NCBI GenBank assembly: GCA_963575745.1
Contig: CAUYUJ010000190.1
Span: 62,001 to 117,031, forward strand
DNA from: Prorocentrum cordatum
Lineage: Eukaryota
Length of the DNA: 55,031 nt
Direction: 5' to 3'
The notes below the pieces were generated by a model. It saw only the letters and a list, made by a program, of their open reading frames with translations. It was not told the origin of the DNA and ran no database searches. This document shows positions 6,150 to 31,282 of this stretch, in pieces. A program made the translations under genes and the position numbers. Each line of letters starts with the position of its first letter. Within the stretch, counting starts at the first letter, position 1.

Positions 6150-6203
<54 letters not shown>

Positions 6204-11920: not shown

Positions 11921-12387
11921 TGTCTGTGCATACCGCTAATTACATACCTATAACTATTTAGGTGCCATGCGAGTAAGTTCACAAACGTACGTATGCACAT
12001 ACATAGTTACACACCTATATATCTGTATATATATATATATAGATACACGTGTGCTCACGCGTATGCCAATGCACGTATATGCACATATGCATGTATGCTT
12101 ATTTGTTCGTATGCAGGTATACGTGTCATGTGCGCGGTATGTGCATAGTTCTGTATGTGTGCATGCATGCTGCGCAGGATGCGCACATGGCTGGCTACGC
12201 GTATGTGTATGTGCGTGACGCTGTCTCAGCATTCCAGATGGATCTTCTGGGTCCGGACACGGCGGTTGGGCTGATAGCAGAACCTGTCCTGGTCGGCAAG
12301 AGCAAGAGGCGAAGAGTGAGGTAGATTGGCTGCGTGCTTCCAGCACACACACACACATATCTGCATCCTCGAAATCGTTAGTCGATC

Positions 12388-12408
12388 CCGTACCCGTTTT
12401 TGTTCAAA
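12388..12408 (+). other. Relict dinoflagellate spliced-leader sequence upstream of the ERGIC3-like gene
   Basis: CCGTACCCGTTTTTGTTCAAA vs SL CCGTAGCCATTTTGGCTCAAG: 16/21 ungapped, sense orientation, 51 nt before ATG 12460. Confidence 0.6.
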
Positions 12409-12459
12409 AGGCACTCCCCAGGGGCGGTCCTCGGCTCCCGCCGGCGCTCCCAGAGGACG

Positions 12460-12510
12460 ATGCTCCGGCTGCTGCGGGAGCTCGACCTCTTCCGCAAGCT
12501 TCCTTCGGAG
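12460..12510 (+). CDS. ERGIC3/Erv46-like ER-Golgi vesicle protein, exon 1 (3' end 12510 or 12517)
   Basis: MLRLLRELDLFRKLPSE matches the family N-terminal L+.lD.(F/Y).K.p.(D/E) pattern; not in the ORF track. Confidence 0.75.
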
Positions 12511-13066
12511 CGACAGGGTAAATTTCGATCCGATCGATCCAGCTCGACATCGATTCCGGCTGGCTCGACAACGTACTGATCAGGTAAGGGCAGGTTTTTC
12601 CTTGTTTTTGGGTCCTACGTGCCCTTGCCATGCCCCCTTACCGTCAAACAACGACTCAGGATGGAAAGCTGGTCCTGGGGAAAAGGTTGAGACTTCTGGG
12701 GGCGCCGTATGAAAAGTCAAGGAGTTGAATCTGTGGGTTCGGGGCTTTGTTGGCCCGCCTTCCGATATTCCGACGATTCGGTGCGGTCTGATGCTTGCAT
12801 GGCGCCGTTGCGCATCCTGGCGCAGCCGGTTTGATGTTTGTTTCTGTGCCGATGCAGCTCCCGACGCGCATTCCAATTCGATCCGATCTCCCGATTCGAT
12901 GCTGACTGGTCCTGCCATGAGACTCGCCGCGGCCCCCCGAGTTCAGTCCTCCTCTCGGAGGAGGATCGAAGGATGAACAACGGAATGAGGATATCAACTT
13001 TCCTGAGGTCCGCGTAGATTTCCCGGGGTTCCCCTGCTGGCGCCTTTGGTGCCGCCCCCTGGCGCG

Positions 13067-13087
13067 CTGGGGTCAGGCACCGATCTC
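13067..13087 (+). CDS. ERGIC3/Erv46-like, putative micro-exon 2 (LGSGTDL)
   Basis: Supplies the expected L..GT segment after KLPSE. Both flanking introns show inverted repeats ending at these boundaries, and it joins in frame to 20524. Confidence 0.45.
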
Positions 13088-13227
13088 AGAGTTCCGTTCG
13101 GGCCTCCGAACATTTTACGTCTGTGCAGTTTGTTGTTCCTCTCAGCGAGGAGGAGAGTCAACCCAAGACTCGGCGACCACACGCGAACCCTGCCCCACCA
13201 CCCCATCATTTCTCGGGGGGAGGGCTA

Positions 13228-14841
13228 AGTGGGCACTGCTTGAGGACCACGGGCCCCCAAACATAATCTTGGAGGCACTTGGAGATCAGGAAATAGTCGA
13301 GGAGGGAGGTGGACATCTTGGCGTCGAGGGTAGGCCCCGCAGGAGCCAGCATGCAGGTGCCCGAACGCGCACAGTCGTCGGACCGGATCAGCTTGGAAGG
13401 GGGAGAGGTCGAAGTCGCCTGCGACCAAAATCGGCGTGCGATGCTCCTGTCCGAGCTGCGCGACCCTCGCGAGCAGGGCGAGTTGGAAACACTTCGAAGG
13501 TTACCCACCTGACGGACAGCCGGCGGCGGCGCGTCGCCCGCGGGCGGGGTGGCTTTCCCCTGGCCGCGCTGGCGGATGCGGCGGGCTGCCTCTGAGGCGG
13601 CGGGTCCCGCTGCTCCGCTGATCTGGAGCTGGATCGTCTTGTCGAGCGCCTGCGCGATGCGCTTGGCGCCCGCCTCCGTGTCCTTCGGCTCCTTGGTGTC
13701 CGTGAGCTCGGCGTCCGAGTCCTGGTCCGCTGGCTTGTCTTCGGCCGCCTCTGGCGCGGCCTGCGGCGGGGCCTCGACCGCCGTCGGCTGCGCGGCGGCC
13801 GCGTCCACCGATGGCGGCGGCGCCGCTGCGGCGGCGATCTTGTTGTGCTCCGCGTTGAGCTTCGTGGCCATGGCGTCGATCTCCCGCTGGAGCTCCGAGG
13901 TGAAGGCCAGGCCGCCGAACTTGGCCTAGACGAAGGCTGCGAGGGTGTCGGCGGCAGTCTCGGTCGGGGCGTGCCTGGCCACGGCCGCCGTCGCTGCCAC
14001 CTTGAACTGGGCTTCCAGCTGCTGGATCTCCGTTCGGATCTTGGAACACTCCACTCGCCACCTCCGCGTACTTGCCGCTGAGCTCTTCCGCTTTCTCGAT
14101 GTGCCACTGCGCGTCCTGCCCTTTCCCGCGATGCGCTCACGCTGGGCCCCGCGATCTGGGCACTGAGGCGCCGCGTCTGCCGATCTGGCGACCTGGAGGC
14201 CAAGGCCGTGTCTTTGGTCGCCTCGAGCTCCTCCTGCGCCTGCTTGTGGGGTTGGCCGCCCACGCCTTCGATGCTTCGCCAAAAGGCGACCGCCTTGATG
14301 CAGACGGCGACGGGGTCCAGGTCGGTGGCTCCGCCGGGTTCGGCCGCGACGCTGTCGTCGAAATGAACGGCACTGCGAGACCATCTGTTGCCTCTGCTCC
14401 TCGACGAGGGACGTGCTGGGGCAGGTGTTGGAGCCTGAGCCGAGGTAGCTGCAAAACTGGCACCGCATTTCCCACAATGACGGTGCTGAAGATCGGCCCA
14501 AGACCATCCCCCACATGACGGTGTCGAGGAGACCATGCAACCTCTCTTGGCTCGTGACTGGCTCCTGGCCGCGCGTCGATCTCGCCCCTCCCGACCGCGG
14601 CGGCTGTTCCCTGCGGGCGGCGCGTGGCGCGCCATGCTGCCAGCGCGCACCGCCAGGCACAGGGCGAGGAGGCGGAGGCCACGGCGGTGGCCCCTCGGGG
14701 CCGCGAACAAAAATCAGTAGTGGGGCTGGACGCTGGCCGAGGCAACCAAGCCTGAGGAAGGGGCTGCCCTTCCACCTCGACCTCGGGCCTCGGAGTCGGG
14801 ACGGGGAGGCGTTCCCCGCCTTGAGCCAAAATGGCCACGGG
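13228..14841 (-). mobile_element. Decayed non-LTR retrotransposon (LINE) 5' portion: SL, 5' UTR, broken ORF1 and AP-endonuclease fragment
   Basis: ORF1 from ATG ~14635 with Cys motif CGGWSW..CGKCG and a coiled-coil-like segment, frameshift ~14150, stop 13926-13928. At 13230-13430 VAGDFD, APAGPT and LDYFLIS..PLSP resemble APE GDFN/IDY/SxH motifs. Confidence 0.65.
14820..14840 (-). other. Genomic copy of the dinoflagellate spliced leader
   Basis: Minus strand reads CCGTGGCCATTTTGGCTCAAG, 20/21 identical to the SL core CCGTAGCCATTTTGGCTCAAG. Confidence 0.9.
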
Positions 14842-14842
14842 G

Positions 14843-14970
14843 GGAGGAGGAGGAGGAGGAGGAGGAGGAGGAGGAGGAGGAGGAGGAGGAGGAGGAGGAG
14901 GACGACGAGGAGGACGAGGAGGACAAGGAGGGGAGCAGGAGGAGGAGGAGGAGGACGAGGAGGAGGAGGA

Positions 14971-15004
<34 letters not shown>

Positions 15005-15345
15005 GGAGGAGGAGGAGATCCAGCGAGCTTGCAGGCAGGTTGGTCGGCCGCCCCTCCCCCATCCCATTACAAACTGCACTTGCCCTTGGAAACCGTTGTC
15101 TGGGGCCGCTTTCTCGGCCCGCGGAAACGGACGGCAACGGAGCCAATCGGAGCCAAGAGGAGGAGGAGGAGGAGGAGGAGGAGGAGGAGGAGGAGGAGGA
15201 GGAGGAGGAGGAGGAGGAGGAGGAGGAGGAGGAGGAGGAGGAGGAGGAGGCGAGGAGGAGGAGGAGGAGGAGGAGGAGGAGGAGGAGGAAGATGAGGAGG
15301 ACGAGGAGGAGGAGGAGGAGGAGGAGGAGGAGAGGGAGGAGGAGG
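14843..15345. repeat. (GAG)n microsatellites in two blocks
   Basis: Read directly from the sequence. Confidence 0.95.
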
Positions 15346-16639
15346 GAGTATATCAACATACTACATACTGAATGCGATGTGCCACGACATCTAGATGCGG
15401 AACCCTCTACTGATTATGCCTCTCGTAGCGCCCTCGGAAATTTGGGCGCGCGCGGAACGCATGTTCAGTCTTGCCCCCCCCCCGTAGGATCCTCTGACTC
15501 CCCCCGACCCTCTCAACGAGCGAAGTGCGGCTCTTGCTCAGGGCCTACAGTGGACAGGGCCGGTGCTGCGATGCCCGTGGATAGAAACAGAGCAAGCGCT
15601 GATTGGGTGCATGCCCGGACGTGGTTTGCTGCTGAAGATGCGCTCTCCTATTTCCACTCGCTCCCCTTCTTCAGCTCCGCCTCACAACACCACCACCACC
15701 TCATCCATACTGCCCTCACCGAGGGTCATGAACAAGTCAATGCCGTGCTTAGTTGGGCTTGCCGCTGCGTAAATTTGGCGTCGGCATGTTCAGCACCGTG
15801 CCGTTAGCCCTGGCGGTCAATACGCTCGCATCGGTCGACTCGCTCGGTATATTATTGCCCACTTGAGGACGGTCAACGCTGGGAATGCAACTTAAATGCA
15901 CACCCTGGCGGCCAGCTAAAGATGCTCGCCGAGGGCCTTGCTGGTGTACCTCCTCCACCTCCAACATCATGCTCCTCTCGGCCGATCCTCGACCCCCCCA
16001 CCTCCCAGGTAGACGGTCCACGCATGCCCATGCAACCAGACCAGAAACGCTGATGCAGATGCCCTTGGCCCTGCCCTCGCCTTGGGTCAGGTCTATGATA
16101 TTCCTCCGCCTCCGCTTGAATGCCCTCACCGAGGGTCATTGTTTGAAATTGCGGCCTGGGTGATGCGAGTGTGGTTCATCGTGGGCCATCGCTTGAACGT
16201 GCGGCCTGGGTGATGCATGTGGCGTGGATGCCGTCACCGAGTGTCATCGCTTGAAACTGCATCTTGGACGAAGTCAGCGCTGATCCCCTCCACTATCTCA
16301 CACACGTCCACCATCCTCCCGCCGATCCAATCGAAACAAACCCTGAACTTGCAACCACCACCGAGGGACAGCGCTCAGTGCAGGCACGGCAGCACGCTCA
16401 ACAAGGGTTGCCCAAGGACTGCTACTGGCCACAACAAACACGGCATGGTATCGGTACCTTCTAGCGACGGTGTGCAACCTGTTTGCGCAGCTCATCGTTG
16501 CCCCAGTAACATCCACAGAGTTCCCTCCTGCGCTCCCCCACCTTCCCCGCCAAATCCCAGCCGAGTGCCCTCGTCGGGGGCAAATAATGTGAACGCGAGC
16601 TAATGGAACATTGTACCTCGCGGACCTAATTTGGATGGT

Positions 16640-16947
16640 GATGCAGAGGATGATGATGCTGCTGATGATGATGATGATGATGCTGCTGATGATGATGATG
16701 AGGATGCTGATGACGATGATGATGATGATGATGAGGATGATGATGAGGATGATGAAGATGATGAGGATGATGATGATGATGATGATGATGATTATTGATG
16801 ATGATGATGATGCTGCTGCTGATGATGATGATGGTGATGTTGATGCTGATGCTGCTGATGATGATGCTGAGGATGATGAAGATGATGAGGATGATGATGA
16901 TGATGATGATGATGATGTTGATGATGATGATGATGGTGATGTTGCTC

Positions 16948-16989
<42 letters not shown>

Positions 16990-17168
16990 CTGATGATGAT
17001 GAGGATGATGAAGATGATGATGATGATGGTGATGATGATGCTGATGCTGCTGATGATGATGCTGAGGATGATGAAGATGATGAGGATGATCATGATGCTG
17101 CTGCTGATGATGCTGCTGATGATGATGATGATGATGATGATGTTGATGATGATGATAATGATGATGAT

Positions 17169-17233
<65 letters not shown>

Positions 17234-17238
17234 CTGCT

Positions 17239-17305
<67 letters not shown>

Positions 17306-17323
17306 CTGCTGCTGTGCTGCTGC

Positions 17324-17409
<86 letters not shown>
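16640..17409. repeat. Long imperfect (GAT)n microsatellite
   Basis: Read directly from the sequence. Confidence 0.95.
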
Positions 17410-17410
<1 letters not shown>

Positions 17411-17752
17411 CGACAGGGGTGGCGGACCTGCCCGCAGCGGGCAATCAGTCGGCCTCTCCCGGCCGTCCCTTGTCAAGCTCCACCGCGACTTGATCGCGGG
17501 GCGTCCGCGCATGATCCATATTTTGGTGCAAAGTGCACTTCGTATTGCTTTTTGCCAGGGACGGTTGGGGGGTGCTGGCGTTGCACGCAGCAGGCTGTGT
17601 GCCCCCCCCCCCCCGTCGTCCCTGTCAAGAGCCGCGGCGACTCGATCGCGGGGCGCTCGCACGTGGTTCGGAGTTTGGTGCCAGGGGCACTTTTTTTCGC
17701 TGCGTGGGATGGGGGGGGGGCCGTGGGCAGTGTCCTGGGTTCGTCGCCGGTA

Positions 17753-17944
17753 GGGTGGGGGAGGGGGTGTATTCAAAAGGATGGGCACAGATCGGCCCCT
17801 GAGCCTGCTTACGTATCCTCCCCTCCTCCCTCCCTCCCTCCCTCCGCTTGGGTGGGGGAGGGGGTGTATTCAAAAGGATGGGCACAGATCGGCCCCTGAG
17901 CCTGCTTACGTATCCTCCCCTCCTCCCTCCCTCCCTCCCTCCCT
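17753..17944. repeat. Near-perfect tandem duplication, 97-bp period
   Basis: GGGTGGGGGAGGGGGTGTATTCAAAAGGATGGGCACAGATCGGCCCCTGAGCCTGCTTACG... at 17753 and 17850. Confidence 0.9.
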
Positions 17945-18392
17945 CCTCCTCCCTCTTTCCCTTCCTCCTTCCTTCTCTTCTCTCCCTCCCTCCCTGTCTC
18001 CCCCTGGGGGGAGTTGGAGGCGGATCATCGTAGACTGGACTTCAGCTTTTGTACGTTTTTGACAGTCTTCTGGCTCCTGGAGGCGCCTCCATGCTTCTGG
18101 AGATCCCTGCTCGCCCTCACTCGTCCCCCCCTCCTCCGTCCCCCACCCTCTTTGCCCTCTCTCCTCCGCCTTTCTCTGCCTCTCCCCTCCCCCTCCCCTC
18201 CTCAAGGAGGCACGCGTGAGGAGGGGCAAGGCTTGATGGGTGCGGGGGGGAGGATCTGGACCCGTGGTCCTGGCACGGGCCCCTCAGGAGCACCGCGACC
18301 CTGGAGTGGAGGCGCCCGAGTCCGTGGCCGCAGTGCTGGTCAGGGCTCTCCAGTCCGTTTGTATTCAGGAGAACAAAACATTGGCAGAAACG

Positions 18393-20485
18393 TTAAGTCG
18401 GGCGTGCCCCCCTACAGTGGGATTTTCGGCGAAAAATTAAAAATACCCCCAAAATGGTAAAAACATATTCCAAAAATAGTCTGGGGATTATTTACCTAAC
18501 AGCGAAGACTGATAGGCTTCTAGTGGGCTCAAAAGAGAGCATCTTGACTCCCCAGGGGCGTCTGGACGGGTGCCGGGAGAATCTGGGCAATCCGCTGAAT
18601 CGGGGGACTCCCCAGGACTCTTATAGATTCCTACAGAATTTCTTATGGATTCCTACAGGTCGTGTTCCCAGAACACTATTCCCAGGCCACATTTTGAATG
18701 CCCGGAGCCAACTGTATGCCACTTCGTGTTCTTCGTCTTCCCAGAACACCATTCCCAGGCCACATTTTGAATGCCCGGAGCCAACTGTAGGCCACTTCGT
18801 GTTATTTGTGTTCCCAGAACACAATTCCCAGGCCACATTTTGAATGCCCGGAGCCAACTGTAGGCCACTTCGTGATCTTCGTGCTCCCAGAACACCATTC
18901 TTGTACCATATTTTGATTGCCCGGAGCTAACTGTGGGCCACTTCGTGATCTTCGTGTTCCCAGAACACCAGTCCTGTGCCATATTTTGAATGCCCGAGCT
19001 GAGGCAGGCTGAGGCCCGAGGCAGGCTGAGGCCGAGGCAGGCCGAGGCAGGCTGAGGCTGAGGCAGGCTGAGGCTGAGGCTGAGGCAGGCTGAGGCTGAG
19101 GCAGGCTGAGGCTGAGGCTGAGGCTGATGCAGGCTGAGGCTGAGGCAGCTGAGGCTGAGCCGAGGCTGAAGGCAGGCTGAGGCTGAGGCTGAGGCTGAGC
19201 AGGCTGAGGCTGAGGCTGAGGCAGGCTGAGGCTGAGGCTGAGGGCTGAGGCTGAGGCAGGCTGAGGCTGAGGCTGAGGCAGGCTGAGGCTGAGGCAGGCT
19301 GAGGCTGAGGCTGAGGCTGAGGCTGAGGCTGAGGCTGAGGCAGGCTGAGGCTGAGGCAGGCGCTGAGGCAGGCTGATGCTGAGGCTGAGGCTGAGGCTGA
19401 GGCGGCTGAGGCTGAGGCTGAGGCAGGCTGAGGCTGAGGCAGGCTGAGGCTGAGGCTGAGGCCGAGGCTGAGGCTGAGGCTGAGGCCGAGGCTGAGGCTG
19501 AGGTGAGGCTGAGGATGAGGCTGAGGCTGAGGCAGGCTGAGGCTGAGCAGGCTGAGGCTGAGGCCGAGGCAGGCTCAGGCCGAGGCAGGCTGAGCTGAGA
19601 CTGAGGCTGAGGCTGAGGCTGAGGCCGAGGCAGGCCGAAGCTGAGACAAGGTGAGGCTGAATGGGGGGGGGAAGGGGGGGGGAGGAGGGCAGGCTGAGGC
19701 AGGCTGAGGCCGAGGCAAGCCGAGGCCGAGGCAGGCTGAGGCTGAGGCTGAGGCAAACCGAGGCAGGCGAGGCTGAGGCTGAGGCTGAGGCTGAGGCTGA
19801 GGCTGAGGCTGAGGCTGAGGCTGAGGCAGGCTGAGGCTGAGGCTGACGCAGGCTGAGGCCGAGGCAGGCTGAGGCTGAGGCTGAGGCAGGCTGAGGCTGA
19901 GGCCGAGGCAGGCTGAGGCTGAGGCTGAGGCAAGCCGAGACAGGCTGAGGCTGAGGCTGAAACTGAGGCAGGCTGAGGCATCCGTAGGAATCCCTAGGAA
20001 TCCTTATGAATCCGTAGGCATCCTTAGGAATCCGTAGGCATAGTTAAGCATCCTCAGGAATCCTTAGGAATCCTTGGGACTCCCTAGGAATCCTTAGGAA
20101 TCCTTAGGAATCCCCAGGAATCCCTAGGAATCAGGAGTCCTAAGGATTCCTAAGGTTTCCTAAGGATTCCGATGGATTCCTAAGGATGCCTAAGGATGCC
20201 TTAGGAATCCCTAGGAATCCTTAGGATTCCATTGGATCCTAAGGCCGTTGCCGCTGCGACTCTCATTGCGAATGCGACTGCGACTGCGAGAACAGCAGAA
20301 TTCTACAACTGGATTCTCACCTGAATCTCAAGGGGAATGCTTCCAGATGTGCTTATACACATCGCTGTTGGGTTGCTTTGCCGGGATAATTTTTGAGTAT
20401 TTTTTGACCTTTTTGGTGTATTTTTGGGTTTTTTTAAATATTTTTTCGTCGAAAATCCCTCTGTAGGGGGACAGGCCCGACTTAA
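18393..20485. mobile_element. Non-autonomous TIR transposon (8-bp TSD, hAT-like) filled with tandem arrays
   Basis: ~45-bp TIR TTAAGTCGGGC(G/C)TG(C/T)CCCCCTACAG(T/A)GGGATTTTCG; degenerate TSD CAGAAACG/CGGAAGCG. Interior: 73-bp repeats (18660-18995), (GAGGCT)n (18998-19980) and CCTTAGGAAT 10-mers (19980-20245). Confidence 0.8.
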
Positions 20486-20523
20486 CGGAAGCGCCAGCTG
20501 TCGGAGCTCGGCGCGGACTTCTC

Positions 20524-21801
20524 GGGTCGGCGCCGGAGTCCGCGAGAAGCCTGTGCTCGTGCCGCCGTTTCGATCTCCTGTGCATCGCTGCGCTGATTCT
20601 CTCGGAGACGAGGACTTTCCTCGCGCCCGTCGGGAGGCAGCGGTTCGACCTGGACATGAGCAGCTCCGTGGATGCCGCCGCGCCGAGGAAGATGCGGGTG
20701 CTGCTGAACATCACGATACAGGACTTCCCTTGCGTCGGTCTGAGCCTGGACTACCAGGACGCCATGGGCACCAGAGCCGTCGACGTCAGCACGACGATCT
20801 TCAAGCAGCGGCTGCACCAGAACGGCTCGGTGGTTGGCGAGACCACGCAGAACAGCCCCAATGCCGTCTCGCAGGGGGCCGCGGCCAACCCGACCGTCTC
20901 TGGCAACGCAACAGGGAATTCAACATGCGGCCATTGCTACGGGGCGTTGCCAGATGGACAATGTTGCAACACGTGCTCCGACGTTATCTACGCGTACCGG
21001 CTCAAGCGGTGGGCGCTGCCCCGCATCGAGAGCATAGAGCAGTGTAAGCACGATGGGTCTGGCAGGCCTTCTTACCAGCCGCCGCAGATCATACATTTAG
21101 ACGACTACAGCTCGGACGACTACATACCGAAATTCACGAGGCTCGGGAGCCTCTCTCAATCAGGCAGCGTCAGCACGCCCTTCCGGCTGAACTTCTCGCT
21201 CGAACCCCATAGTTCGGGTGCTGCCAACAGAACGTTTGCGCCGCTCCTGCTGAACCTGAGCGACTTCCTCGCTGGCATCTCCCGCTCCACCTCTGCGCCG
21301 GCAGACGACGCAGCGCTGCGCGAGCTGGACGAGGACTCCTCGGGAGACGGCAACGGCTCCAACGGCTCGACGAACTGGACGCTCACGTGGCCCGACTGCG
21401 TGCACCACAACGTCATCATACACGGCACGGACGTCAACGAGGCCCTGCTGACCGACCTGCGGCCGCACGGCGCCACGCAGGGCTGCTGGCACGACGACTG
21501 CTCGCGCTCGGACCAGTTCGCCTGCGACAGGGCCGAGAGCTGCGCCGGCGCGTGCCGCGCCCTGCCCGCGTGCCACTGGTGGAGCTGGGGCTACGAGTAC
21601 GGCGCGGCCAAGTGCTGGCTCCGCACGGGGAAGCACCAGCGCGGCCGGCGCTACGGCTTCTCCTCGGGCTCCCGGGCCTGCGCGCCGAGCTCGCCCCCGA
21701 CGCCCGCGGCCGCGGCGCCCAGCGCGCCCGCGGGGGCGGCGCGGGCTCCGCCGGGGCGCCGCCTGATGAACTGGGACGACGACTACGCCTACCCCAGCCT
21801 G
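20524..21801 (+). CDS. ERGIC3/Erv46-like, large exon 3 (TM1, ERGIC_N, Cys-rich region, PAN/Apple-like insert); 5' boundary uncertain (20524-20575)
   Basis: LLCIAALILSE, MRVLLNITIQDFPCVGLSLDYQDAMG and CGHCYGA..QCCNTCSDVIYAYRLKRW..IEQC are hallmark Erv46/ERGIC3 motifs. Confidence 0.9.
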
Positions 21802-22120
21802 GCGGCGCGCGCCCTGGGGGGGGTGGCGCGGGGGGGGGGGGGGAGGCGGCCCGCGGAGAGGGCGGCGTTGCTTCCGGGGCGGCCCGGGGGCTGCTCTCCG
21901 GAGCCCTCCCGTGGCGGGCAGGGGGGGGCAGCGATAGGGGGGGGGGATGGGCACATGGGGGGGCTGCATCGAACTCCCCTCGCCCATTGATCGCCGACAG
22001 GGGTCTGATAGCCCCACCCCGCCCAGGAACGATTTGCTATCGGGGGCCTATCGCCGATCTTTCGACGATGCGTCGCCGATTCCAGGTCGATGTTTGCCCC
22101 CAGTGCGAGTCCCCCCTATC

Positions 22121-22514
22121 TCGACGGCGAGCCCGGGGGGGGGGAGGAAGTGAGAAGGGGCGGGCCTCCTCAGCAGGCTCGGAAGCCTCCCGGCCTTCCG
22201 AGAAGTTTTGTGCGGCGCCCTCCCTGGAGACACAGAAATCCGAGGCGGGAATTTATCCATATCCACCGCCTGGAGGGTCAGTTCTCGGAGCCTCGACAGG
22301 CGGTGGATATGGACATATTCGGGCCCCCGGGGGCCGAAATATATCCAGATCCACTGCCCGCTGGGGCACCAGGACGTCGGCTCCCAGGCGGTGGATACGA
22401 ATAAATCCCCGCCTCGCAAGAAAGCCTCTCAGAAGGTCGGAGGGCTTCTGAGAAGCCCCGCCGCCTTCTGAGAGGGCCTCCTCCTCCTCGCTTGCCCCCC
22501 CCGCTCGCCGCCGA
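22121..22514. mobile_element. TCGGCGGCGAG-family MITE with a nested second MITE (22241-22416)
   Basis: Outer ends match 10964-11170. Inner TIRs CGAGGCGGGAATTTATCCATATCCACCGCCTGG / CCAGGCGGTGGATACGAATAAATCCCCGCCTCG. Confidence 0.75.
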
Positions 22515-22628
22515 CCAGACACGGGGGTGCGAGTCGCGGAGGCAGGGAGGCGCGCGGCGCGCATGCTTACGCCGAGGGCAGCCGCGCCTCGCGCTGCGCG
22601 GCCCGGGCCGGACAGCTGCTCTTCTTCG

Positions 22629-22756
22629 CAGGGCTGGACCTGAACGTTTCTTTTCGTTTTGTTTTCGCTTTGTTTTTCGTTTCGCTCTGCCTGTTTTCCT
22701 GTATCTCTCTCTGCCAAAACCGAAATCCAGCCAAACAGCGTTCAGGTCCAGCCCTG
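22629..22756. mobile_element. 128-bp hAT-like MITE
   Basis: Perfect TIR CAGGGCTGGACCTGAACG; 8-bp TSD CTTCTTCG/CTTCGTCG. Confidence 0.85.
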
Positions 22757-22794
22757 CTTCGTCGACGGGGCCGGCCTTCATCACGTGGCTCCAG

Positions 22795-22995
22795 AAGGGG
22801 CCCCAGGGAAATTGGTTTTTGAGACGGGCGACGCTCAGGAGGAAAAGAAACAGACAGACACAATTAATCTTCGATTCCATAGAAAATATAGGAAAATATA
22901 GGAAGTGGGGGGGAAGACAGAAACCCAGAAGACATGGGAAAATATGGGGACTATTTTTATCTGTGTGTATTTATTTGTGTGTCCTGGGGCCCCTT
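22795..22995. mobile_element. 201-bp MITE
   Basis: TIR AAGGGGCCCCAGG / CCTGGGGCCCCTT, flanked by CAG on both sides; second partial copy at ~4292-4462. Confidence 0.75.
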
Positions 22996-23429
22996 CAGAT
23001 GCGGATTTCTCAAGTCCGCTCGGCCTCGCCCGCGAGGTCTCTGCGTGACGCCTTCGCTCGCGGTCTCAGAGGTCCCTTTCGCTGGCGTCCCTTGAAGAGA
23101 CGTGTCACTTCCATACATAGGCGAGCGCGCTCCACTGCTCGCAGAGTAACCACTCGCAGATGGTCCGGATCCGCTGCGGGGGACGCACGACCCATTGCAT
23201 TGGGGCACGGGGCTGCCCCGCGCTCGCCGCCGAAGATCGCCGCGCCTCATTTGAGAAGGCCCCTGGCTGCCTCCCACGAGGAGCCCTCCGCCTGCCTGGA
23301 AGGCCTCTAGCTTCCTCTCGTGCCAGGCCTGGAGGACGTGGCCAAGCCAGGGGGGTGGGGCGTCTTCACAGCTCTGCTGGGTGCAGGATGGGCCTGGCCA
23401 GGGAGCAGTGGACATGTATAGATCTCGTT

Positions 23430-23865
23430 CAAGGGAGGAAAATCAATCCAGACCCGATAATTGGCGTTTACTAAAACGTCCCTGGGCGTTTACAAAACAG
23501 CCCTGCCCTGTTCGATTCCTTCTTGGGCCTAGTGCCAAGCCAGGAGGACGTGGCCAAGCCAGGAGGGCGTGCCGTCTTAAGCTCTGCTGGGTTGAGGACA
23601 GGCCTGGTCAGGGATCAGTGGACCTATGTAGATCTCGTCGCCACATTCCGACGCTCCTTGCGACACGGCCCCCGATGACGGGTCCAGCGCCGTTCCCTCT
23701 CCGGGCCGATGCTCGCATTCTGACGCTGGCTTCGCCGCGGTTTCCGACGACGCTGCTGACGCCGCGATGCCCCTCTGAGAAGGCCCCTGCCTCCCAAGAG
23801 GCCCAGAGCGTTTACCAAACGGCCCTGGGCGTTTGCCAAGCGGCCCTGCCCTGCTCGATTCCTTT
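23430..23865. repeat. Dispersed repeat, two related segments here and a third at ~33515-33620
   Basis: GACCCGATAATTGGCGTTTAC.AAA..CCCTGGGCGTTTAC.AAACAGCCCTGCCCTGTTCGATTC is shared. Confidence 0.75.
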
Positions 23866-24239
23866 GCGGGACGGGAACATGACTACAGCCACTGCTTCTT
23901 GTTTGCGCCGCCTTCCAGCCGGCCGAAAAGGAAGCAGTGGTTGTGGTCATTTCCCTGGTGCCAAGCTCAACGAAAATGGGAAATGACCACAGCCACTGCT
24001 GTGTTTCTGCGGGCTGGAAGGCGGCAACAAAAGAAAAGCGGTGGCTGTGGTCGAATTCACGCCCCGCATCCTTCTCTGAGCGCGTTCACGGAGCGACCTC
24101 GCGTTCCAGGGTGGCTCTTTGGGGGGGCGGAGCTTCTTGGACCTCTGCCCGCCGCCCTGCTCCGGGCCCCTCTGAGGAGGCCCCCCTGCCTCCCCAGAGG
24201 CCCTCTCCGCCTGCCCTCGCAGGCCTCTCGGGCCCCCCC

Positions 24240-24397
24240 TCGCCAGCCTGGAACATATCCCTATCCCTACGATTGGCATCGCCTCCTCTCGATGCCGATC
24301 TTAGGGATGCCCTCCGTTTCTGAGAGCGCACCCCCGAGATTGTCGTCGACTTTTGGCCTGCCAATCTTAGGGATGGGGGCACGTTCGGGGCTGGTTG
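24240..24397. mobile_element. TTACCAGCCT-family MITE, copy 2 (opposite orientation, diverged), ~9-bp flanking repeat
   Basis: CCAGCCTGGAACATATCCCTATCCCTA...TAGGGATGGGGGCACGTTCGGGGCTGG; GGCCCCCCC on both sides. Confidence 0.7.
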
Positions 24398-24789
24398 GGC
24401 CCCCCCCCATGCGTGCCGCCCGCCGCGGGGGCTCGCGCCGCCGGCCCGGCAGGCCCTACTCCTTCGACTGGGGGCCATCCCCGGAAGGCCGGGCGGCGGC
24501 ACGCGCAGCACCGACGCCTCGGGGGCCCGCGCGGACGCCTCTCGGGTCGGCGCTGGGCTCCCGCCCGCCCCTCGGGCGGGGGATCGACACTGCACCGCAC
24601 TTCGGGGGCGGAAAAGAGGGGGGGATCACTAGGGGGGGGGGAAGAAGAGAGGGGGGTGATGACCCAGCTTTTGTGGCGCCTCTTCTTATTTCGTTACGTC
24701 CCTGGCCCCCCCCGCTGGGCCGCGCTGCACCACACTGCGCTACCCCAGGGCCGTCTCTGCACCTCGGCTCCGCGCGGGTCGGGCGAAGA

Positions 24790-24925
24790 GAGCTGTGCGC
24801 ACGCACCGGTCCTGGCCAGGCCCATCCTGGGCCCCAGGATCGGTGCAAGTGCCCTCCCGGCCAAGGCGGGAGGGCGTATGCACCGATCTTGGGCTCAGAG
24901 GATGGACCTGGCCAAAATCGGTGTA
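24790..24925. repeat. Palindromic dispersed repeat, second copy at ~48508-48645
   Basis: GCGCACGCACCG.TCCTG...CAGGATCGGTGC..GTGCCCTCCCG.CCAAGGCGGGAG.GC..TGCACCG shared; internally self-complementary. Confidence 0.7.
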
Positions 24926-25142
24926 TGTGCATGGTTCTTTTTCCTCTAGCCTGGCTGTGCTGGCTCGACGGAGCAGTCCTTTTCTTTGGGCGACCAGATT
25001 CTGCAGTCGATCCCCCGCTCGAGCCCCCGGCGGCGCCCCTGGCGCCGCGTGCCGGGAGAGGGGGTCCACCGCCGATCCGAGGCCTTCGTGCGGACCTCCG
25101 AGCGGTGGTGCCTGTGCTGTTGCCTGTCTTTCTGCATCCCTG

Positions 25143-25557
25143 CATCTGCCCATGTTCGGGATGGACTCCGCGGAGAGCAAGCTGCGGCGAGAGCAGAAGG
25201 GCGAGAGCTGCCGGATCCACGGGCACTTCGATACCCACAAGGTTCCTGGGAACTTCCACATCGGGACGCACGGCGTGGTCACTCCAACCTACCTGTCTTA
25301 TTTCGATGAGCCTTCTCCGCCCACGCAGAACATGCTTCATACGATCAACCAGCTAGCATTTATTGACCTGGCCAACGGTACTCTGTTGAATGATACGCAA
25401 CCGTTGGACGGTTTTGAGAGCCCGAAAGCGTTCACTTTCCAGTACTACCTCACCGTGAATCCCGCGACGGTCCTGCCACGTGGAGGAGGCGAAGTGCACG
25501 GCTACCAGTTCAGGTCTGGATCCTTCGTCACCAATGAGCTGATCGGCCCTGCTGTCT
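25143..25557 (+). CDS. ERGIC3/Erv46-like, exon 4 (COPII-coated vesicle C-terminal domain)
   Basis: GESCRIHGHFDTHKVPGNFHIGTH, NMLHTINQLAF, PLDG, FQYYLTVNPAT, YQF. Confidence 0.92.
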
Positions 25558-26064
25558 CGGGTGCTGCCAGACGTGCCCCCGGCCCAAGGTGCCCCCTGGA
25601 GTTTGCCAGGGAGGCCCCCACGGCCTTCGGAGCACTCCTCACGCGGCCCAGCAGGGGCCCCAGGACTCCCAGAACAGTGCGAAAAGCTGGGGGACCCGCC
25701 CGCCCCGCCCGCCCCGCCGGCCCTGGCCTCCTGCCCGCCCGTTTCGTCGTCGCCGGCCTGCTTCTCCCTTCCTCTTCCCCCTCCGGTGCCAGCCGCAGTC
25801 GGCTCAGACGGTGACGAGGCCTCGCTGACGGTACCCGGCGGAGCGTGCTGGGGGCACCTTTCGGTCGGGGCCAGGACGAGCATGAGGCCGTTCCAGAGCG
25901 TGCCGGAACGCTCTCAGAGCGTTCCGGAACGCTTTGAGGAAGCTGCGTCGCCCGAGACCTCGAGAGCATCCGGATCTCAGAGATTCTCGATCCATCTTCG
26001 CCGACGTTATCCTCGTCCTGGCTTTGTCCTAACCTTGGGCTGCAGGCACCTCTCGCAGCACCCG
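25558..26064. mobile_element. Introner-like TIR element forming the intron between exons 4 and 5
   Basis: 33-bp TIR (CGGGTGCTGCCAGACGTGCCCCCGGCCCAAGGT / ACCTTGGGCTGCAGGCACCTCTCGCAGCACCCG, ~27/33) and 7-bp duplication GCTGTCT/GCCGTCT of coding sequence. Confidence 0.8.
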
Positions 26065-26071
26065 GCCGTCT

Positions 26072-26109
26072 TCTTCCGTTACGACATCGACCCCATCCGG
26101 GTCACGTAT
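26072..26109 (+). CDS. ERGIC3/Erv46-like, exon 5 ([PAV]FFRYDIDPIRVTY)
   Basis: Matches the conserved P(G/A)VFF.YD.SPI.V motif. Confidence 0.85.
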
Positions 26110-26180
26110 CGGCCGGGCCTGCCCCTCTGCCGCCCGTCCCCCTGGCTCGGACGGCTTTCTCGTGGCCTCGCTGGATCGGT

Positions 26181-26334
26181 TAGGGGGCCACATGCGAACC
26201 CTACCCCTACCCCCCACGATTTCTGAGGGGGAGGGTGGGGTTCACTTCGTTCGGGAGCTCCCGAGCGAAGTGAACCCCACCCTCCCCCTCAGAAATCGTG
26301 GGGGGTAGGGGTAGGGTTCGCATGTGGCCCCCTA
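26181..26334. mobile_element. 154-bp near-perfect palindromic MITE, 5-bp TSD TCGGT
   Basis: Arms TAGGGGGCCACATGCGAACCCTACCCC... centred on GAGCTC, one mismatch seen. Confidence 0.9.
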
Positions 26335-26472
26335 TCGGTAGGTTGTTCGTTCAGGATGGAGCCCAGAAGTCGGAGGAGGAAAGGGTACCCATGCTGCTAC
26401 CCTTCCCCCGCTGACGGGGTAGGGTAGCGGTATGGGTACCTTTTCCCGTTTTGGGCCCCCTGGGAGGCCCAA

Positions 26473-26514
<42 letters not shown>

Positions 26515-26629
26515 CTCTCCTTTTTGGGCCTCCCAGGAGGCCTTCGAAGCCACCGCTGGATTCGCCTCGAAATTCTAGTCTTAGCGCACCCCAGGAGAGG
26601 TCTGGAGAGTAGCGGTATTGGTAGCATTA

Positions 26630-27000
26630 GGTTCCCCCAGGAAAGATCCGAACTTGGGCTTATAATGTTCCTGGAATGTGAAACTGGGTTCATCATGCTT
26701 CCCCCCAGAACATTGCAAACCTGGGCTTGTAAGGTTCTGGGGAAATTCACTGGGGGTCATACTGTTCCCCCCTCAGAACGTTGCCAACCTGGTTTTGTAA
26801 GGTTCCGAGGATATTCGCTGGGGGTCATACTGTTTCCACCCAGGACAATGTAACCTTGGTCCATAATGTTCCTGGAAGATCAACTGGGGTTCAGAATGTC
26901 CCCTCCCAGAACCATGGCATCTGGGGATATTCACTGGGGTTCACATACATGGCCCTCTCGGAACATTGCAATTTTGGGTTTGCAGTGTTCTGGGGGACCC
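26630..27000. repeat. Degenerate ~67-bp tandem repeat
   Basis: CTGGGG(G/T)TCA-type anchors at ~26750, 26818 and 26884. Confidence 0.65.
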
Positions 27001-28647
27001 AGCTCCGGAACCTCCAATGCCCTGTCACCAGAGTAACTCGGAGGTGGATAGACCTCCTACCCTGACACGTCGATTAGTGAATGGGCCGTTTTCGGTTCGC
27101 GAGAGGGCGTCGCGGCCGTTATTTTGCGGGTCCAGGTCCGCGGGTTTCGGTCCCAGGCCGCTTTCACTAAGGGGAGGTTTACTACAGGGAGGTTTGTCCA
27201 CCGCCGTAACATTCAACATTCATGATGTTCACCTATGGACCCTGGTTCATTATTCTCGGAGAGCAATACTTTTTCTACTACTCCGGAATGATAGCCCTCT
27301 TGGGAGCCTTGGGGGCCATCTTGGGGCCATCTTGGAGGAGATCGATCGAAGAAGGGGGGGGTACCAGATTTGGGTCGCCCCAGGAGGACAACATGGGCCC
27401 AAAACCTTGGTCATATCAGTGAATTTTGCTTTCTCTCCGATGCCGTCCTGGACGCTCCAATGGGTCGCGACCCCCCCCTATCGAGGTCCAGGGGAGGGGG
27501 GAAGGGGTCAAGACACCCTCCCCGCTCGCAAGCTGTCTTGCTCACTCCCACCCGCCCTCCCAACACAGAAGTAGCACCCACGCCCCAGCACGTTGAGCGA
27601 TCGTCTCTGGATGCGCAGTTAGTGGGAACCAATACAGACCCCATGTGCGCGACCCTAAACCACCTGCGCCCAAATTGCCCGTGGGATTTTGTACGACTGC
27701 AGCTCTGGGGCTCGAGCCAGATGTATTTTTTTTAAGTAAAAGAAAGACTGCGGCCTCGGGAGCGCCAGCGCGTCGCAATGCAGAAGTGACTGTGGCTTCG
27801 GGGAGGCACTCTTGCAGTACTTCACGCGGGGGTGTGGCCGCGGGCGCGCGAGCTCGATGGTAATTGCCATGGGCCTGTGGCCTCGGGAGCGCGACTCTGG
27901 CTGCGCAGCTTTGTCAAGGGCATTTAAAAAACGCCCCCCTACCCTGGTTTACGACTTTTTTGGCTCGTCAACCTTGGGGATGGGGATACAGTCAAAAACC
28001 CTACTAAGGACGCGCGGCTTTGCTCAGGGTACCCTTGCGTCCTTGCTCTCCTTTGCTCTTGCGTCCTTCAGGTTCTCGTCGTCCGCCGCCCCCCAAAATC
28101 CCAACTTCGGCTTCCAAGGGTCTTGCGTCCTTACCGCGCGTCCTTATTATCAAGGGCAGAAAAACAAAAACACGCCCCTACCCTGGTTTACGAGGCGCTG
28201 TGCGCTGAAACTCCTGTGGGCTGACAGGGTAAACCCTGCGTGATGTGCCGCGTCCTGGCGGCTCTGGGCTTTGGGGGTTCCCAGGAGGTGTGCAGACCAC
28301 GCACTGGTAACCCTGGGTAGGGTCGTTTTTTCATCCCTCAATTGTGGCTTGGGGATCGCGAGTCTGGCGTAATTCAGACGAGGTGTTGACGTCGTGAGCG
28401 CGACGGCGTGATTTACGAGGGATTGCGGCCTCGGACGTGCGAATCTGGTGTAGTTTTGCATCCCCAAGAAATTCCGGGTTGGAATGTGGATCGTTTTCGG
28501 CCTCCCCCCTCACGTGAATTTCATGCCTTGCAACAGTGGAGCTAGAAACGGGAAAAACTACAATTAGAACTCTGGAGCTAGAACTGGCGCAGAAAACAGG
28601 ACAGTCTAGTCCACACAGCCTATTGGCTTCCAAGGGGGCTGGCGGAT

Positions 28648-28779
28648 TACACAGAAGAGGTCAGGTGGAGCGGATACCTGGTCAACGTCTGTGCCGTGGT
28701 CGGAGGAGTCGTCGCGGTGTTCTCTATGCTGGCCCAGCTGGTTGAGACAGCAGCAGCGGTCGCGGCAAACAAGGAGTGA
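28648..28779 (+). CDS. ERGIC3/Erv46-like, final exon (TM2 and stop)
   Basis: YTEEVRWSGYLVNVCAVVGGVVAVFSMLAQLVETAAAVAANKE* matches the family (F/Y)L..(L/V)CA(I/V)(I/V)GGV motif; absent from the ORF track. Confidence 0.9.
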   Translation, partial: YTEEVRWSGYLVNVCAVVGGVVAVFSMLAQLVETAAAVAANKE

Positions 28780-29118
28780 GGCCTTGGTCGAGCAACGCAC
28801 GGCTCGCATTGCACTCCTCCAACAAAAGTCGTGAGAGATGCTGCTGCATTTGCTGCTCATTCCAAGCAGACCCTCCTTGCCCTCACGTTTCTCGTCGTCC
28901 ACCCATCGGCTCGACAGGCCAGGCGGAATCCGAGGGATAATACGACGAGCTCTCTGGTTTGTGTCCCACTGGCTCCGCCTTGTCGCCGTCGCCGTCGCCG
29001 TCGCCTACGTCGATGTCGTCGTCGTCCTCCTCCTCCTCCTACTCCTCCTCCCCCGGCCGCGCTGCATGTGCCTTGCCGAACGCGTTCCACTACTCGCAAA
29101 GTGCCTACTCGCAAACGT

Positions 29119-31201: not shown

Positions 31202-31282
31202 TAGGGGGCCGCGTGCGCCTACCCCTTACCCCCCGCGATTTCTGAGGGGGAGGGTGGGGTAGGGTTCGCACGTGGCTCCCTA
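31202..31282. mobile_element. 81-bp MITE of the TAGGGGGCC family, 5-bp TSD ATGAT
   Basis: Same ends and GATTTCTGAGGGGGAGGGTGGGGT core as 26181-26334; a partial relative lies at ~13170-13227. Confidence 0.8.

What the first reader, a model, noticed from the sequence alone, without database searches (positions are those of the whole stretch)
12510..28647. Most introns of one gene are delimited by terminal base-pairing rather than good GT-AG sites
Seen, at junctions predicted from protein homology. Intron 1: GCGACAGGG (12510) / CCCTGGCGC (13065), 8/9. Intron 2: 13088-13109 vs 20501-20522, 15/22 (18/22 with G-U) across 7.4 kb, with TCTC repeated. Intron 4: 33-bp TIR. Intron 5: 26108-26119 vs 28636-28647, 10/12 with G-U. 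Intron 3 has only a CCTG direct repeat. GT-AG alternatives exist for introns 1, 4 and 5 but change conserved spacing (-1, +3 and -7 aa). Established: introner-like and repeat-bounded non-canonical introns are reported in some dinoflagellates. Inference: structure-guided splicing or serial intron gain from diverse TIR elements, with end pairing retained despite kilobases of nested insertions.
Basis: partly seen in the sequence, partly recalled or inferred. Interest (0 to 1): 0.72.

Follow-up and report, generated by a model that had tools for sequence, protein, structure and literature searches.

The report
Hairpin-bounded non-canonical introns, dinoflagellate gene
A conserved secretory-pathway gene of a GC-rich dinoflagellate is interrupted by introns that are cleanly absent from its mRNA yet lack normal splice-site letters; most are bounded by short direct repeats and base-pairing ends like old transposons, which matters because standard gene prediction cannot model them.

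Summary
The gene is an ERGIC3/Erv46-like gene. Exon 3 runs 20584-21796, and a 27-nt micro-exon lies at 24449-24475.

RNA contigs from four studies match the exons with 0 mismatches and skip 21797-24448, 24476-25134, 25554-26067 and 26108-28645. They also join 18362 to 20584. In no allowed register does any of these five introns read G[T/C/A]..AG. Only intron 1, placed by homology alone, has a GA..AG register.

Four of the five (I2-I5) have a short direct repeat across the junctions and, next to it, terminal inverted repeats of 21-33 nt that beat shuffles.

Best reading: old MITE- or foldback-derived introns are removed from RNA as "element plus one repeat copy", as in Amoebophrya non-canonical introns and euglenid nonconventional introns. 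That pairing guides the cut is inferred, not shown. The main rival, mRNA from an uninterrupted identical copy, was not excluded by DNA reads.

The parts
12460..12510 (+). Exon 1 (ATG at 12460; 17 codons)
   Evidence: tblastn of homolog P0001. Part of the 651-aa open model. Not covered by laid RNA.
12511..18290 (+). Intron 1 (5780 nt), placed by homology only. 5-nt direct repeat GGAGC. Register -3 reads GA..AG.
   Evidence: No end pairing beyond chance (p 0.72). Holds long microsatellite arrays.
18291..18362 (+).
   Evidence: tblastn hit 18276-18365. The 30-letter loose end of run X12 before 20584 equals 18333-18362 and occurs once in the window.
18363..20583 (+). Intron 2 (2221 nt). Registers AT..GC, TT..CA, TC..AT. 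Direct repeat AT. Arms 18366-18386 and 20560-20580.
   Evidence: Exon 3 starts at 20584 in 4 of 4 runs. Arms pair 16 WC + 1 GU of 21, with a 7/7 core. Shuffle p 0.010.
18391..20487 (.). Element nested in intron 2, with 46-bp 91% terminal inverted repeats
   Evidence: Related ends at 49003-49252.
20584..21796 (+). Exon 3 (1213 nt): ERGIC_N, start of COPIIcoated_ERV, and a long luminal insert
   Evidence: Pfam. RNA contigs show 0 mismatches over 20584-21695.
21797..24448 (+). Intron 3 (2652 nt). Registers GC..CG, CC..GG, CT..GC. Arms 21799-21823 and 24420-24444.
   Evidence: Joint in 1 of 4 runs (X3), in a contig that also carries the three joints downstream. Arms pair 19 WC + 2 GU of 25. Shuffle p 0.020; 0 of 3000 random pairs are as stable.
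24449..24475 (+). Exon 4, a 27-nt micro-exon
   Evidence: Flanked by two RNA joints. Restores the conserved peptide seen in homologs.
24476..25134 (+). Intron 4 (659 nt). No G[TCA]..AG in 7 registers. 6-nt direct repeat CATCCC. Arms 24482-24513 and 25103-25134. The whole intron folds as one long hairpin.
   Evidence: Joint in 2 of 4 runs. Arms pair 22 WC + 7 GU of 32. Shuffle p 0.010. Whole-intron fold z -13.3.
25135..25553 (+). Exon 5 (419 nt), COPIIcoated_ERV
   Evidence: Pfam. RNA contigs show 0 mismatches.
25554..26067 (+). Register 0 reads GT..CC. 4-nt direct repeat GTCT. 33-nt arms 25558-25590 and 26032-26064.
   Evidence: Joint in 3 of 4 runs. Arms pair 28 WC + 1 GU of 33. 0 of 500 shuffles are as stable. 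Fold z -4.55.
26068..26107 (+). Exon 6 (40 nt)
   Evidence: RNA joints on both sides. tblastn 100% to P0001.
26108..28645 (+). Registers AT..GG, TC..GA, CG..AT. Direct repeat AT. No significant end pairing.
   Evidence: Joint in 4 of 4 runs. Pairing z +0.69. No longer TIR found within 200 nt of the ends.
28646..28779 (+). Exon 7, with TGA at 28777-28779

Best explanation
This is an expressed 7-exon ERGIC3/Erv46-like gene of a GC-rich core dinoflagellate. Five of its six introns are absent from polyA RNA at borders that are not G[T/C/A]..AG in any register.

Four of them (I2-I5) have the anatomy of old non-autonomous DNA transposons or foldback elements. Each has a short target-site-like direct repeat, an inverted repeat next to it (0-4 nt away), and unrelated arm sequences. 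What is missing from the RNA is exactly the element plus one copy of the direct repeat.

The most likely mechanism is inferred, not shown. In the pre-mRNA the two arms pair and place the two repeat copies side by side at the foot of a stem. A splicing machinery that tolerates arbitrary border letters then cuts and joins there. That machinery could be a relaxed spliceosome or a second, unknown one, as proposed for Amoebophrya non-canonical introns and euglenid nonconventional introns.

Later insertions (the 2.1-kb element in I2, dispersed repeats in I3 and I6) enlarged the introns without touching the ends.
For: Shown:
- A Pfam ERGIC_N + COPIIcoated_ERV gene.
- The 7-exon model gives an open 651-aa frame, 87.9% identical end to end to transcript-derived homolog P0001.
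- The joints restore invariant peptides across dinoflagellate homologs.
- RNA contigs of 4 runs from 4 studies match the exons with 0 other letters. They skip I3 (1 of 4 runs), I4 (2 of 4), I5 (3 of 4) and I6 (4 of 4), and all start exon 3 at 20584. The X12 loose end equals the end of exon 2.
- In run X3 the bins inside I4 and I5 (24575-24863 and 25731-26019) have depth 0. In the bins that straddle their borders, the exon share at depth 43.7 accounts for all the depth (my arithmetic table 2).
- No G[TCA]..AG register exists for I2-I6.
- End pairing beats dinucleotide shuffles for I2-I5, and the cognate 5'/3' pair is the best in its row and column of the cross matrix.
- The terminal stems appear in whole-intron folds: I5 z -4.55, I4 z -13.3.
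- Junction microhomology is 2, 2, 6, 4 and 2 nt. The chance that all five are >=2 is 1.7e-4.
- I2 holds a nested element and keeps its end pairing.

Known precedent: Amoebophrya non-canonical introns have 8-20-nt inverted repeats and 3-5-nt direct repeats over the borders (PMC7789003 passages).
Against: - I6 is non-canonical but has no pairing above chance, so pairing is not needed for every such intron.
- There is no consistent sense-strand advantage: I3 and I4 are more stable as sense RNA, I2 and I5 as antisense. The 11:3 G-U excess comes mostly from I4 and from a scoring scheme that favours G-U.
- The longer 5-7-nt 'imperfect repeats' were read post hoc.
- No other copy of any arm lies in the 55-kb window, so family membership of the elements is unshown.
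- All RNA evidence comes from assembled contigs, which cannot show strand, level or rare unspliced forms.
- No DNA run was laid, so a DNA copy already lacking the elements is not excluded.
- The I1 and I2 donor sides rest on homology plus one 30-letter loose end.
Confidence: 0.7

Rival explanations
1. The window copy is a transposon-riddled, silent duplicate. The mRNA comes from an uninterrupted, otherwise identical paralog or allele, so the 'joints' are simply empty insertion sites.
For: The anatomy (direct repeat + inverted repeat, with exactly the element plus one repeat copy missing) is what an empty site looks like. Dinoflagellate genomes hold many duplicates (PMC10666404 passages). No DNA run was laid, and table 5b was not given.
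Against: The exons match the RNA with 0 differences over about 2 kb in 4 studies. The arms have diverged by 4 of 33 to 10 of 32 positions, and I2, I3 and I6 have since taken up further repeats. That implies age which should also show in the exons of a separate copy. Five separate insertions into one copy and none into the other is unlikely. This argument is weaker if the arms were imperfect from the start.
Confidence: 0.12
2. The skips are artefacts of reverse transcriptase jumping between the direct repeats across stable hairpins, or of contig assembly. The mature mRNA keeps the sequences.
For: Short direct repeats beside strong hairpins (I4 -430 kcal/mol) are the classic setting for template switching. 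This is recalled knowledge; no paper was read for it here.
Against: The same joints appear in up to 4 independent studies. In X3 the bins inside I4 and I5 have depth 0 while the exons are at 43.7. Retention would shift the frame (659 and 514 nt) and cut off conserved C-terminal exons that stay open and 93-100% identical to P0001. I6 has no hairpin yet is skipped in 4 of 4 runs.
Confidence: 0.03
3. These are ordinary dinoflagellate spliceosomal introns (GT/GC/GA..AG) whose ends merely happen to lie near repeats.
For: Intron 1 has a GA..AG register with G after the AG. I3 and I5 start with GC and GT in register 0.
Against: None of 21 allowed registers of I2-I6 ends in AG together with a G[TCA] start. 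The nearest AG choices would add 9 nt at I5 or shift the frame at I3 (read from the sequence), and they are not seen in the contigs.
Confidence: 0.02

Closest known systems
Non-canonical introns / introner elements of Amoebophrya strains A25 and A120 (Farhat et al. 2021, PMC7789003; passages read)
   Same: RNA-supported introns with no fixed border dinucleotides. Inverted repeats join the 5' and 3' intron ends into a hairpin. Short direct repeats overlap the exon/intron borders. A MITE-like origin is proposed.
   Different: Those are in a parasitic early-branching lineage and were analysed at 40-1000 nt, with many in repeated families. Here the closest named homologs are core dinoflagellates, the introns are 0.5-2.7 kb with nested repeats, the arms reach 33 nt, the exact direct repeats are 2-6 nt, and no family copies were found in the window.
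Introner elements counted in Prorocentrum cordatum and other free-living dinoflagellates (Dougan et al. 2023, PMC10666404; passages and two supplements read)
   Same: Introns with 8-20-nt inverted repeats and 3-5-nt direct repeats within 30 nt of the ends, in a high-GC genome (59.7%) with long introns (mean 4.7 kb).
   Different: Those were found by pattern search on gene models whose donors are 99.9% GT, GC or GA by construction (Table 2), and they make up 2.4% of introns. Here the borders are taken from RNA and are not G[TCA]..AG, and 4 of 6 introns of one gene show the pattern. That the window comes from this genus is my inference and was not tested.
Nonconventional introns of euglenids (as summarised in PMC11282704; passages read)
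   Same: Non-canonical borders, TIR-like ends that bring the intron ends together in RNA, TSD-like repeats at the junctions, lengths from tens to thousands of nt, and a suspected MITE origin. I2 even has CAG at +4 to +6 pairing with a CTG near the 3' end.
   Different: An unrelated lineage. The euglenid CAG/CTG positions (+4-6 / -8 to -6) are not general here. Excision as circles and removal after conventional introns could not be tested.
Introners of Symbiodinium and Polarella (Roy et al., preprint 10.1101/2020.10.14.339549; passages read) and the identical repeated intron boundaries of Crypthecodinium (PMC5032977; passages read)
   Same: Transposon insertion with a target-site duplication creates the intron, and a repeat is shared by both borders.
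   Different: Those introns still use GT/GC/GA..AG, and the repeated boundary contains AGG. I2-I6 have neither.

Membership tests
Amoebophrya-type non-canonical intron / introner element (Farhat 2021 definition) | RNA-supported intron whose borders are not the canonical motif | tested here: met
   5 of 5 RNA-supported introns (I2-I6) have no G[TCA]..AG in any register. I1 was not RNA-tested.
Amoebophrya-type non-canonical intron / introner element (Farhat 2021 definition) | 8-20-nt inverted repeat between the 5' and 3' ends of the same intron | tested here: met
   Met for I2-I5, 4 of the 5 RNA-supported introns: arms of 21-33 nt with 76-85% Watson-Crick pairs, shuffle p 0.02 or lower. Not met for I6. 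I2's perfect core is only 7 bp.
Amoebophrya-type non-canonical intron / introner element (Farhat 2021 definition) | 3-5-nt direct repeat overlapping the exon/intron borders | tested here: inconclusive
   Exact repeats are 2, 2, 6, 4 and 2 nt, more than chance taken together (1.7e-4). Only I5 falls within 3-5 nt. The 5-7-nt versions with one transition are a post hoc reading.
Amoebophrya-type non-canonical intron / introner element (Farhat 2021 definition) | Repeated in the genome as families | not testable with these tools
   No genome is held. Within the window, no second copy of any arm was found; only interior pieces recur.
Euglenid nonconventional introns | Ends pair, with CAG at +4 to +6 and CTG at -8 to -6 | tested here: not met
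   The ends pair in I2-I5, but a CAG at +4-6 occurs only in I2, whose CTG lies at -6 to -4.
Euglenid nonconventional introns | Excised as full-length circular RNA, after the conventional introns | not testable with these tools
   Only assembled contigs were available.
Standard dinoflagellate spliceosomal introns / GH-AG introners | 5' GT, GC or GA and 3' AG (usually AG|G) | tested here: not met
   0 of 5 RNA-supported introns meet it. I1 (homology only) can be read as GA..AG|G.
U12-type AT-AC introns | AT..AC borders with a conserved 5' ATATCC box | tested here: not met
   I2 and I6 start with AT in register 0 but end in GC and GG, and they have no ATATCC. The consensus is recalled.
Self-splicing group I / group II introns | Match to the Rfam covariance models | tested here: not met
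   Nothing at or above any gathering score in 12000-29000. Only sub-threshold hairpin look-alikes were found.
ERGIC3/Erv46 protein family (the host gene) | ERGIC_N plus COPIIcoated_ERV domains | tested here: met
   PF13850 and PF07970 on exon translations. Full-length collinearity with homologs that carry both domains.

The most novel reading that the evidence does not exclude
Core (free-living, bloom-forming) dinoflagellates, not only the parasite Amoebophrya, routinely remove transposon-derived hairpin introns at arbitrary border letters. A structure-guided pathway separate from GT/GC/GA..AG splicing would do this, a convergent counterpart of euglenid nonconventional splicing. A sizeable class of introns in conserved genes would then be invisible to current dinoflagellate gene models. 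That could contribute to their low BUSCO recovery and to the low AGG-acceptor share reported for the high-GC genome.
Probability: 0.3. Interest if true: 0.8.

Novelty: new member of a known kind. Interest (0 to 1): 0.55.

Why it matters
Published pipelines for core dinoflagellate genomes allow only GT/GC/GA donors with AG acceptors (PMC10666404 methods and Table 2). Here a housekeeping gene needs five borders of another kind to give its conserved protein. If this is common, such pipelines must either break these genes or bend their models.

The locus also gives a compact test set. One transcript carries four hairpin-plus-repeat introns, one non-canonical intron without a hairpin, and one probable GA..AG intron. 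With it one can ask whether end pairing is required, and whether the excised RNA is a lariat or a circle.

My searches found RNA-validated borders of this kind in print only for Amoebophrya. Subscription papers, including the final Current Biology version of Roy et al., were not searchable.

Tried and rejected
- Whole genome of the window: not held, so genome-wide enrichment could not be tested.
- Orthologous introns for compensatory change: a metagenome scan with the exon 5 peptide gave 3 mRNA-like contigs and one distant 40%-GC genomic contig, whose match to model residues 456-643 (across the I5 and I6 sites) is uninterrupted. These were of no use.
- Read laying was run on 20240-28900 only.
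- Gene-model-derived Symbiodiniaceae homologs (P0025, P0028) were aligned to look for model errors at the same positions. This was uninformative.
- P0032 against P0001 for alternative junction use: identical apart from 8 extra N-terminal residues.
- A sense-strand bias of pairing as a sign of RNA-level selection: mixed, 2 for and 2 against.
- A longer or displaced TIR for I6 and I1: none found.
- Bulge-helix-bulge or IRE1-type sites: compared by eye with recalled consensus motifs against the fold. No fit, but this was not a formal test.
- Pfam on 19 other long ORFs of the window, to find a second gene for the same test: no family at E<=0.001 (one weak Tmemb_55A hit, E 0.007, far below its cutoff).

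Full report
**What the locus is.** The window is GC-rich eukaryotic DNA (52-75% in 2-kb bins) full of microsatellites and dispersed repeats. Translations of 20470-21990, 24663-25814 and 28582-28779 hit Pfam ERGIC_N and COPIIcoated_ERV. The gene is therefore an ERGIC3/Erv46-type cargo-vesicle protein.

A search with the exon 3 peptide found 31 proteins. The top 27 are 516-776 aa, all but one of them (516 aa) at least 609 aa. Nearly all come from transcriptome-type sources, and the only organism names are Pyrodinium and Durusdinium. They carry a luminal insert of about 280 aa that the 385-aa animal ERGIC3 lacks. The host is thus a core dinoflagellate. Its high GC and long introns resemble what Dougan et al. 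report for Prorocentrum cordatum (59.7% GC, mean intron 4.7 kb; PMC10666404 passages). The genus is my inference and was not tested.

| Exon | Coordinates | Note |
|---|---|---|
| 1 | 12460-12510 | ATG at 12460 |
| 3 | 20584-21796 | one long open frame |
| 4 | 24449-24475 | 27-nt micro-exon |
| 5 | 25135-25553 | |
| 6 | 26068-26107 | |
| 7 | 28646-28779 | TGA at 28777-28779 |

Joined by coordinates, they give a 1956-nt open frame of 651 aa. It is 87.9% identical to P0001 from first to last residue. The joints restore peptides that are invariant or nearly so among seven dinoflagellate homologs.

**RNA evidence.**
- A search with 20530-21040 found 19 runs in 8 studies holding the stretch, and 11 rows show a share of 0.86. 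That share fits an exon starting at 20584.
- I laid the contigs of four runs from four studies (X1 and X12 are polyA RNA by record; X3 and X7 are 'RNA?' by guess) on 20240-28900.
- I chose that stretch because 14843-20230 holds tandem arrays up to about 1 kb and the tool turns long repeats away.
- All listed exon pieces have 0 other letters, for example 20584-21617, 20584-21695, 25135-25553 and 28646-28827.
- The joints, with the number of letters that fit either side ('both'):

| Joint | 'both' | Runs showing it |
|---|---|---|
| 21796>24449 | 2 | X3 only |
| 24475>25135 | 6 | X1, X3 |
| 25553>26068 | 4 | X1, X12, X3 |
| 26107>28646 | 2 | all four |

- One 760-nt X3 contig carries all four joints.
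- Exon 3 begins at 20584 in all four runs.
- The 30 loose letters before 20584 in X12 equal 18333-18362, a string found once in the window. This places the I2 joint at 18362>20584 with 'both' = 2.
- In X3 the bins wholly inside I4 and I5 (24575-24863 and 25731-26019) have depth 0. In the neighbouring bins the exon share at depth 43.7 accounts for all the depth (my arithmetic table 2).
- Caveat: contigs cannot show strand, level or rare forms.

**Border letters.** I listed every register that the repeats allow:

| Intron | Registers |
|---|---|
| I2 | AT..GC, TT..CA, TC..AT |
| I3 | GC..CG, CC..GG, CT..GC |
| I4 | CA..TG, AT..GC, TC..CA, CC..AT, CC..TC, CC..CC, CG..CC |
| I5 | GT..CC, TC..CG, CT..GT, TC..TC, CG..CT |
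| I6 | AT..GG, TC..GA, CG..AT |

None of the 21 registers is G[TCA]..AG. I1 is placed by homology only. It has a 5-nt repeat and one register, GA..AG followed by G, which is the ordinary dinoflagellate type.

**End pairing.** I scored the first and last 30 nt of each intron with RNAduplex against 500 dinucleotide shuffles:

| Intron | dG (kcal/mol) | Shuffle p |
|---|---|---|
| I2 | -21.3 | 0.010 |
| I3 | -51.7 | 0.020 |
| I4 | -33.1 | 0.010 |
| I5 | -40.9 | 0 of 500 |
| I6 | -24.3 | 0.76 |
| I1 | -11.4 | 0.72 |

- Against 3000 random position pairs of the window, the fractions at least as stable are 0.155, 0, 0.006, 0.001, 0.076 and 0.66 in the same order. I2 is therefore weak by that control.
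- In the 6x6 cross matrix the cognate partner is the best in both row and column for I2-I5, but not for I6 or I1.
- The ungapped arms are:

| Intron | 5' arm | 3' arm | Pairs |
|---|---|---|---|
| I2 | 18366-18386 | 20560-20580 | 16 WC + 1 GU of 21 (7/7 core) |
| I3 | 21799-21823 | 24420-24444 | 19 WC + 2 GU of 25 |
| I4 | 24482-24513 | 25103-25134 | 22 WC + 7 GU of 32 |

- Folding the whole introns with 20-nt flanks puts these arms in the closing stem. I5 gives -269.8 kcal/mol, z -4.55. I4 gives -430.5 kcal/mol, z -13.3, so I4 is one long foldback.

**Direct repeats.** Junction microhomology of 2, 2, 6, 4 and 2 nt compares with a window mean of 0.73. The chance that all five are >=2 is 1.7e-4, and the chance of a sum >=16 is 0.002.

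Read by eye and post hoc, each repeat extends to 5-7 nt if one transition is allowed (I2 5 nt, I3 6, I4 6 exact, I5 7). The inverted repeat then starts directly beside it on both sides in I3, I4 and I5. This is the layout of a target-site duplication around a TIR element. The RNA lacks exactly the element plus one repeat copy. The four arm sequences are unrelated to each other apart from a loose C-N-G-G start.

**Nested growth.** I2 consists of 28 nt, then a 2097-bp element (18391-20487) with 46-bp, 91% TIRs of its own, then 96 nt. Related ends lie at 49003-49252. I3, I4 and I6 hold pieces of dispersed repeats found elsewhere in the window and covered by foreign RNA contigs at 95-99% identity.

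**Is the pairing used?** This is not shown.
- Non-Watson-Crick positions in the four arm pairs split into 11 G-U, 3 A-C and 12 transversions (binomial p 0.029).
- That count is weak evidence. My scoring rewarded G-U when choosing register and length, and 7 of the 11 come from I4.
- Sense against antisense duplex energies favour the sense strand in I3 and I4 and the antisense strand in I2 and I5.
- I6 is removed at AT..GG without significant pairing.
- Structure guidance is therefore a reasonable model taken from Amoebophrya and Euglena, at about even odds.

**Rivals.**
1. *An uninterrupted identical copy supplies the mRNA.* The anatomy fits an empty site and no DNA run was laid. Against it, there are 0 exon differences over about 2 kb, while the arms differ at 4 of 33 to 10 of 32 positions and the introns have since gained further repeats.
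2. *Reverse-transcriptase jumping.* This is unlikely. The joints recur across studies. X3 has no coverage inside I4 and I5. Retention would shift the frame ahead of conserved exons. I6 has no hairpin.
3. *Ordinary GH..AG splicing.* Refuted for I2-I6.
4. *Self-splicing or other known RNA families.* Nothing in 12000-29000 reaches a gathering score.

- The counts are right.
- The intron 1 partner at 13057-13065 and both intron 2 arms (13088-13109, 20501-20522) lie inside real introns. The first is at chance level (z +0.39). The second is unusual (z -3.3; 3% of random pairs reach it given +-15 nt of freedom) but is not at a junction.
- 'Intron 3 with only a CCTG repeat' is really the 3' two-thirds of exon 3 plus I3, exon 4 and I4.
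- Introns 4 and 5 are placed exactly right.

**Literature.**
- Amoebophrya A25 and A120: more than 60% non-canonical introns, of which 11-30% have 8-20-nt inverted and 3-5-nt direct repeats (PMC7789003 passages).
- P. cordatum: such 'introner elements' in 2.4% of introns by pattern search, on models whose donors are 24.7% GT, 51.4% GC and 23.8% GA, with only 79.7% AGG acceptors (PMC10666404 passages and supplement passages).
- Symbiodinium and Polarella introners use GH..AG (preprint passages).
- The repeated intron boundaries of Crypthecodinium contain AGG (PMC5032977 passages).
- Euglenid nonconventional introns are summarised in PMC11282704 (passages) and in the review PMC11453091 (passages).
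- Five searches turned up no report of RNA-validated non-G[TCA]..AG, hairpin-bounded introns in a core dinoflagellate. The library lacks most subscription papers, and bioRxiv supplements were closed.

**Verdict.** The phenomenon is real at this locus but sits at partly different coordinates from those given. It belongs to a known kind, Amoebophrya-type non-canonical, repeat-bounded introns, and is here documented in a conserved gene of a core dinoflagellate. One gene cannot show how common it is.

Noticed in passing
35827-45000 (+): An uninterrupted 3058-codon open frame in about 70% GC DNA, with no Pfam hit. By eye its middle looks like a reverse transcriptase and its end like a tyrosine recombinase, which would make it a DIRS-like retroelement. 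Residues from 39274-41226 score 0.94 in the ESM Atlas against clusters in which 10-24% of members carry RVT_1.
   Followed up: partly
18391-20487; 49003-49252: An element with 46-bp 91% terminal inverted repeats, nested in intron 2. Related ends occur twice near 49.0-49.25 kb.
   Followed up: partly
26180-26334; 31201-31286: A near-perfect palindromic hairpin repeat inside intron 6, with a second copy at 31.2 kb. It gives sub-threshold miRNA-like Rfam hits on both strands and is covered by RNA contigs from other loci.
   Followed up: no
24791-24891; 48507-48637: The centre of the intron 4 foldback matches, in both orientations, a palindromic stretch at 48.5 kb (77-80% identity). It may be a second member of the same foldback family.
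   Followed up: no
14843-17410; 18998-20230: Very long microsatellite arrays inside introns 1 and 2: (GGA)58, (GAG)63, (GAT)259, about 1 kb of GCTGAG-type units and (AGGAATCCTT)26.
   Followed up: no
29184-30400; about 4500-7000; about 53000-55000: A 76-nt tandem repeat, open in several frames with a recurring GGAPYGATKRC-like peptide. It recurs at three places in the window on both strands. No Pfam hit.
   Followed up: no
No explanation was found; it may be chance or two copies of a small repeat.
   Followed up: partly
89-658 (+): A 190-codon open frame whose peptide recalls the RNase H/integrase-side region of copia-type retrotransposons. This is a recalled resemblance only; Pfam found nothing.
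   Followed up: partly
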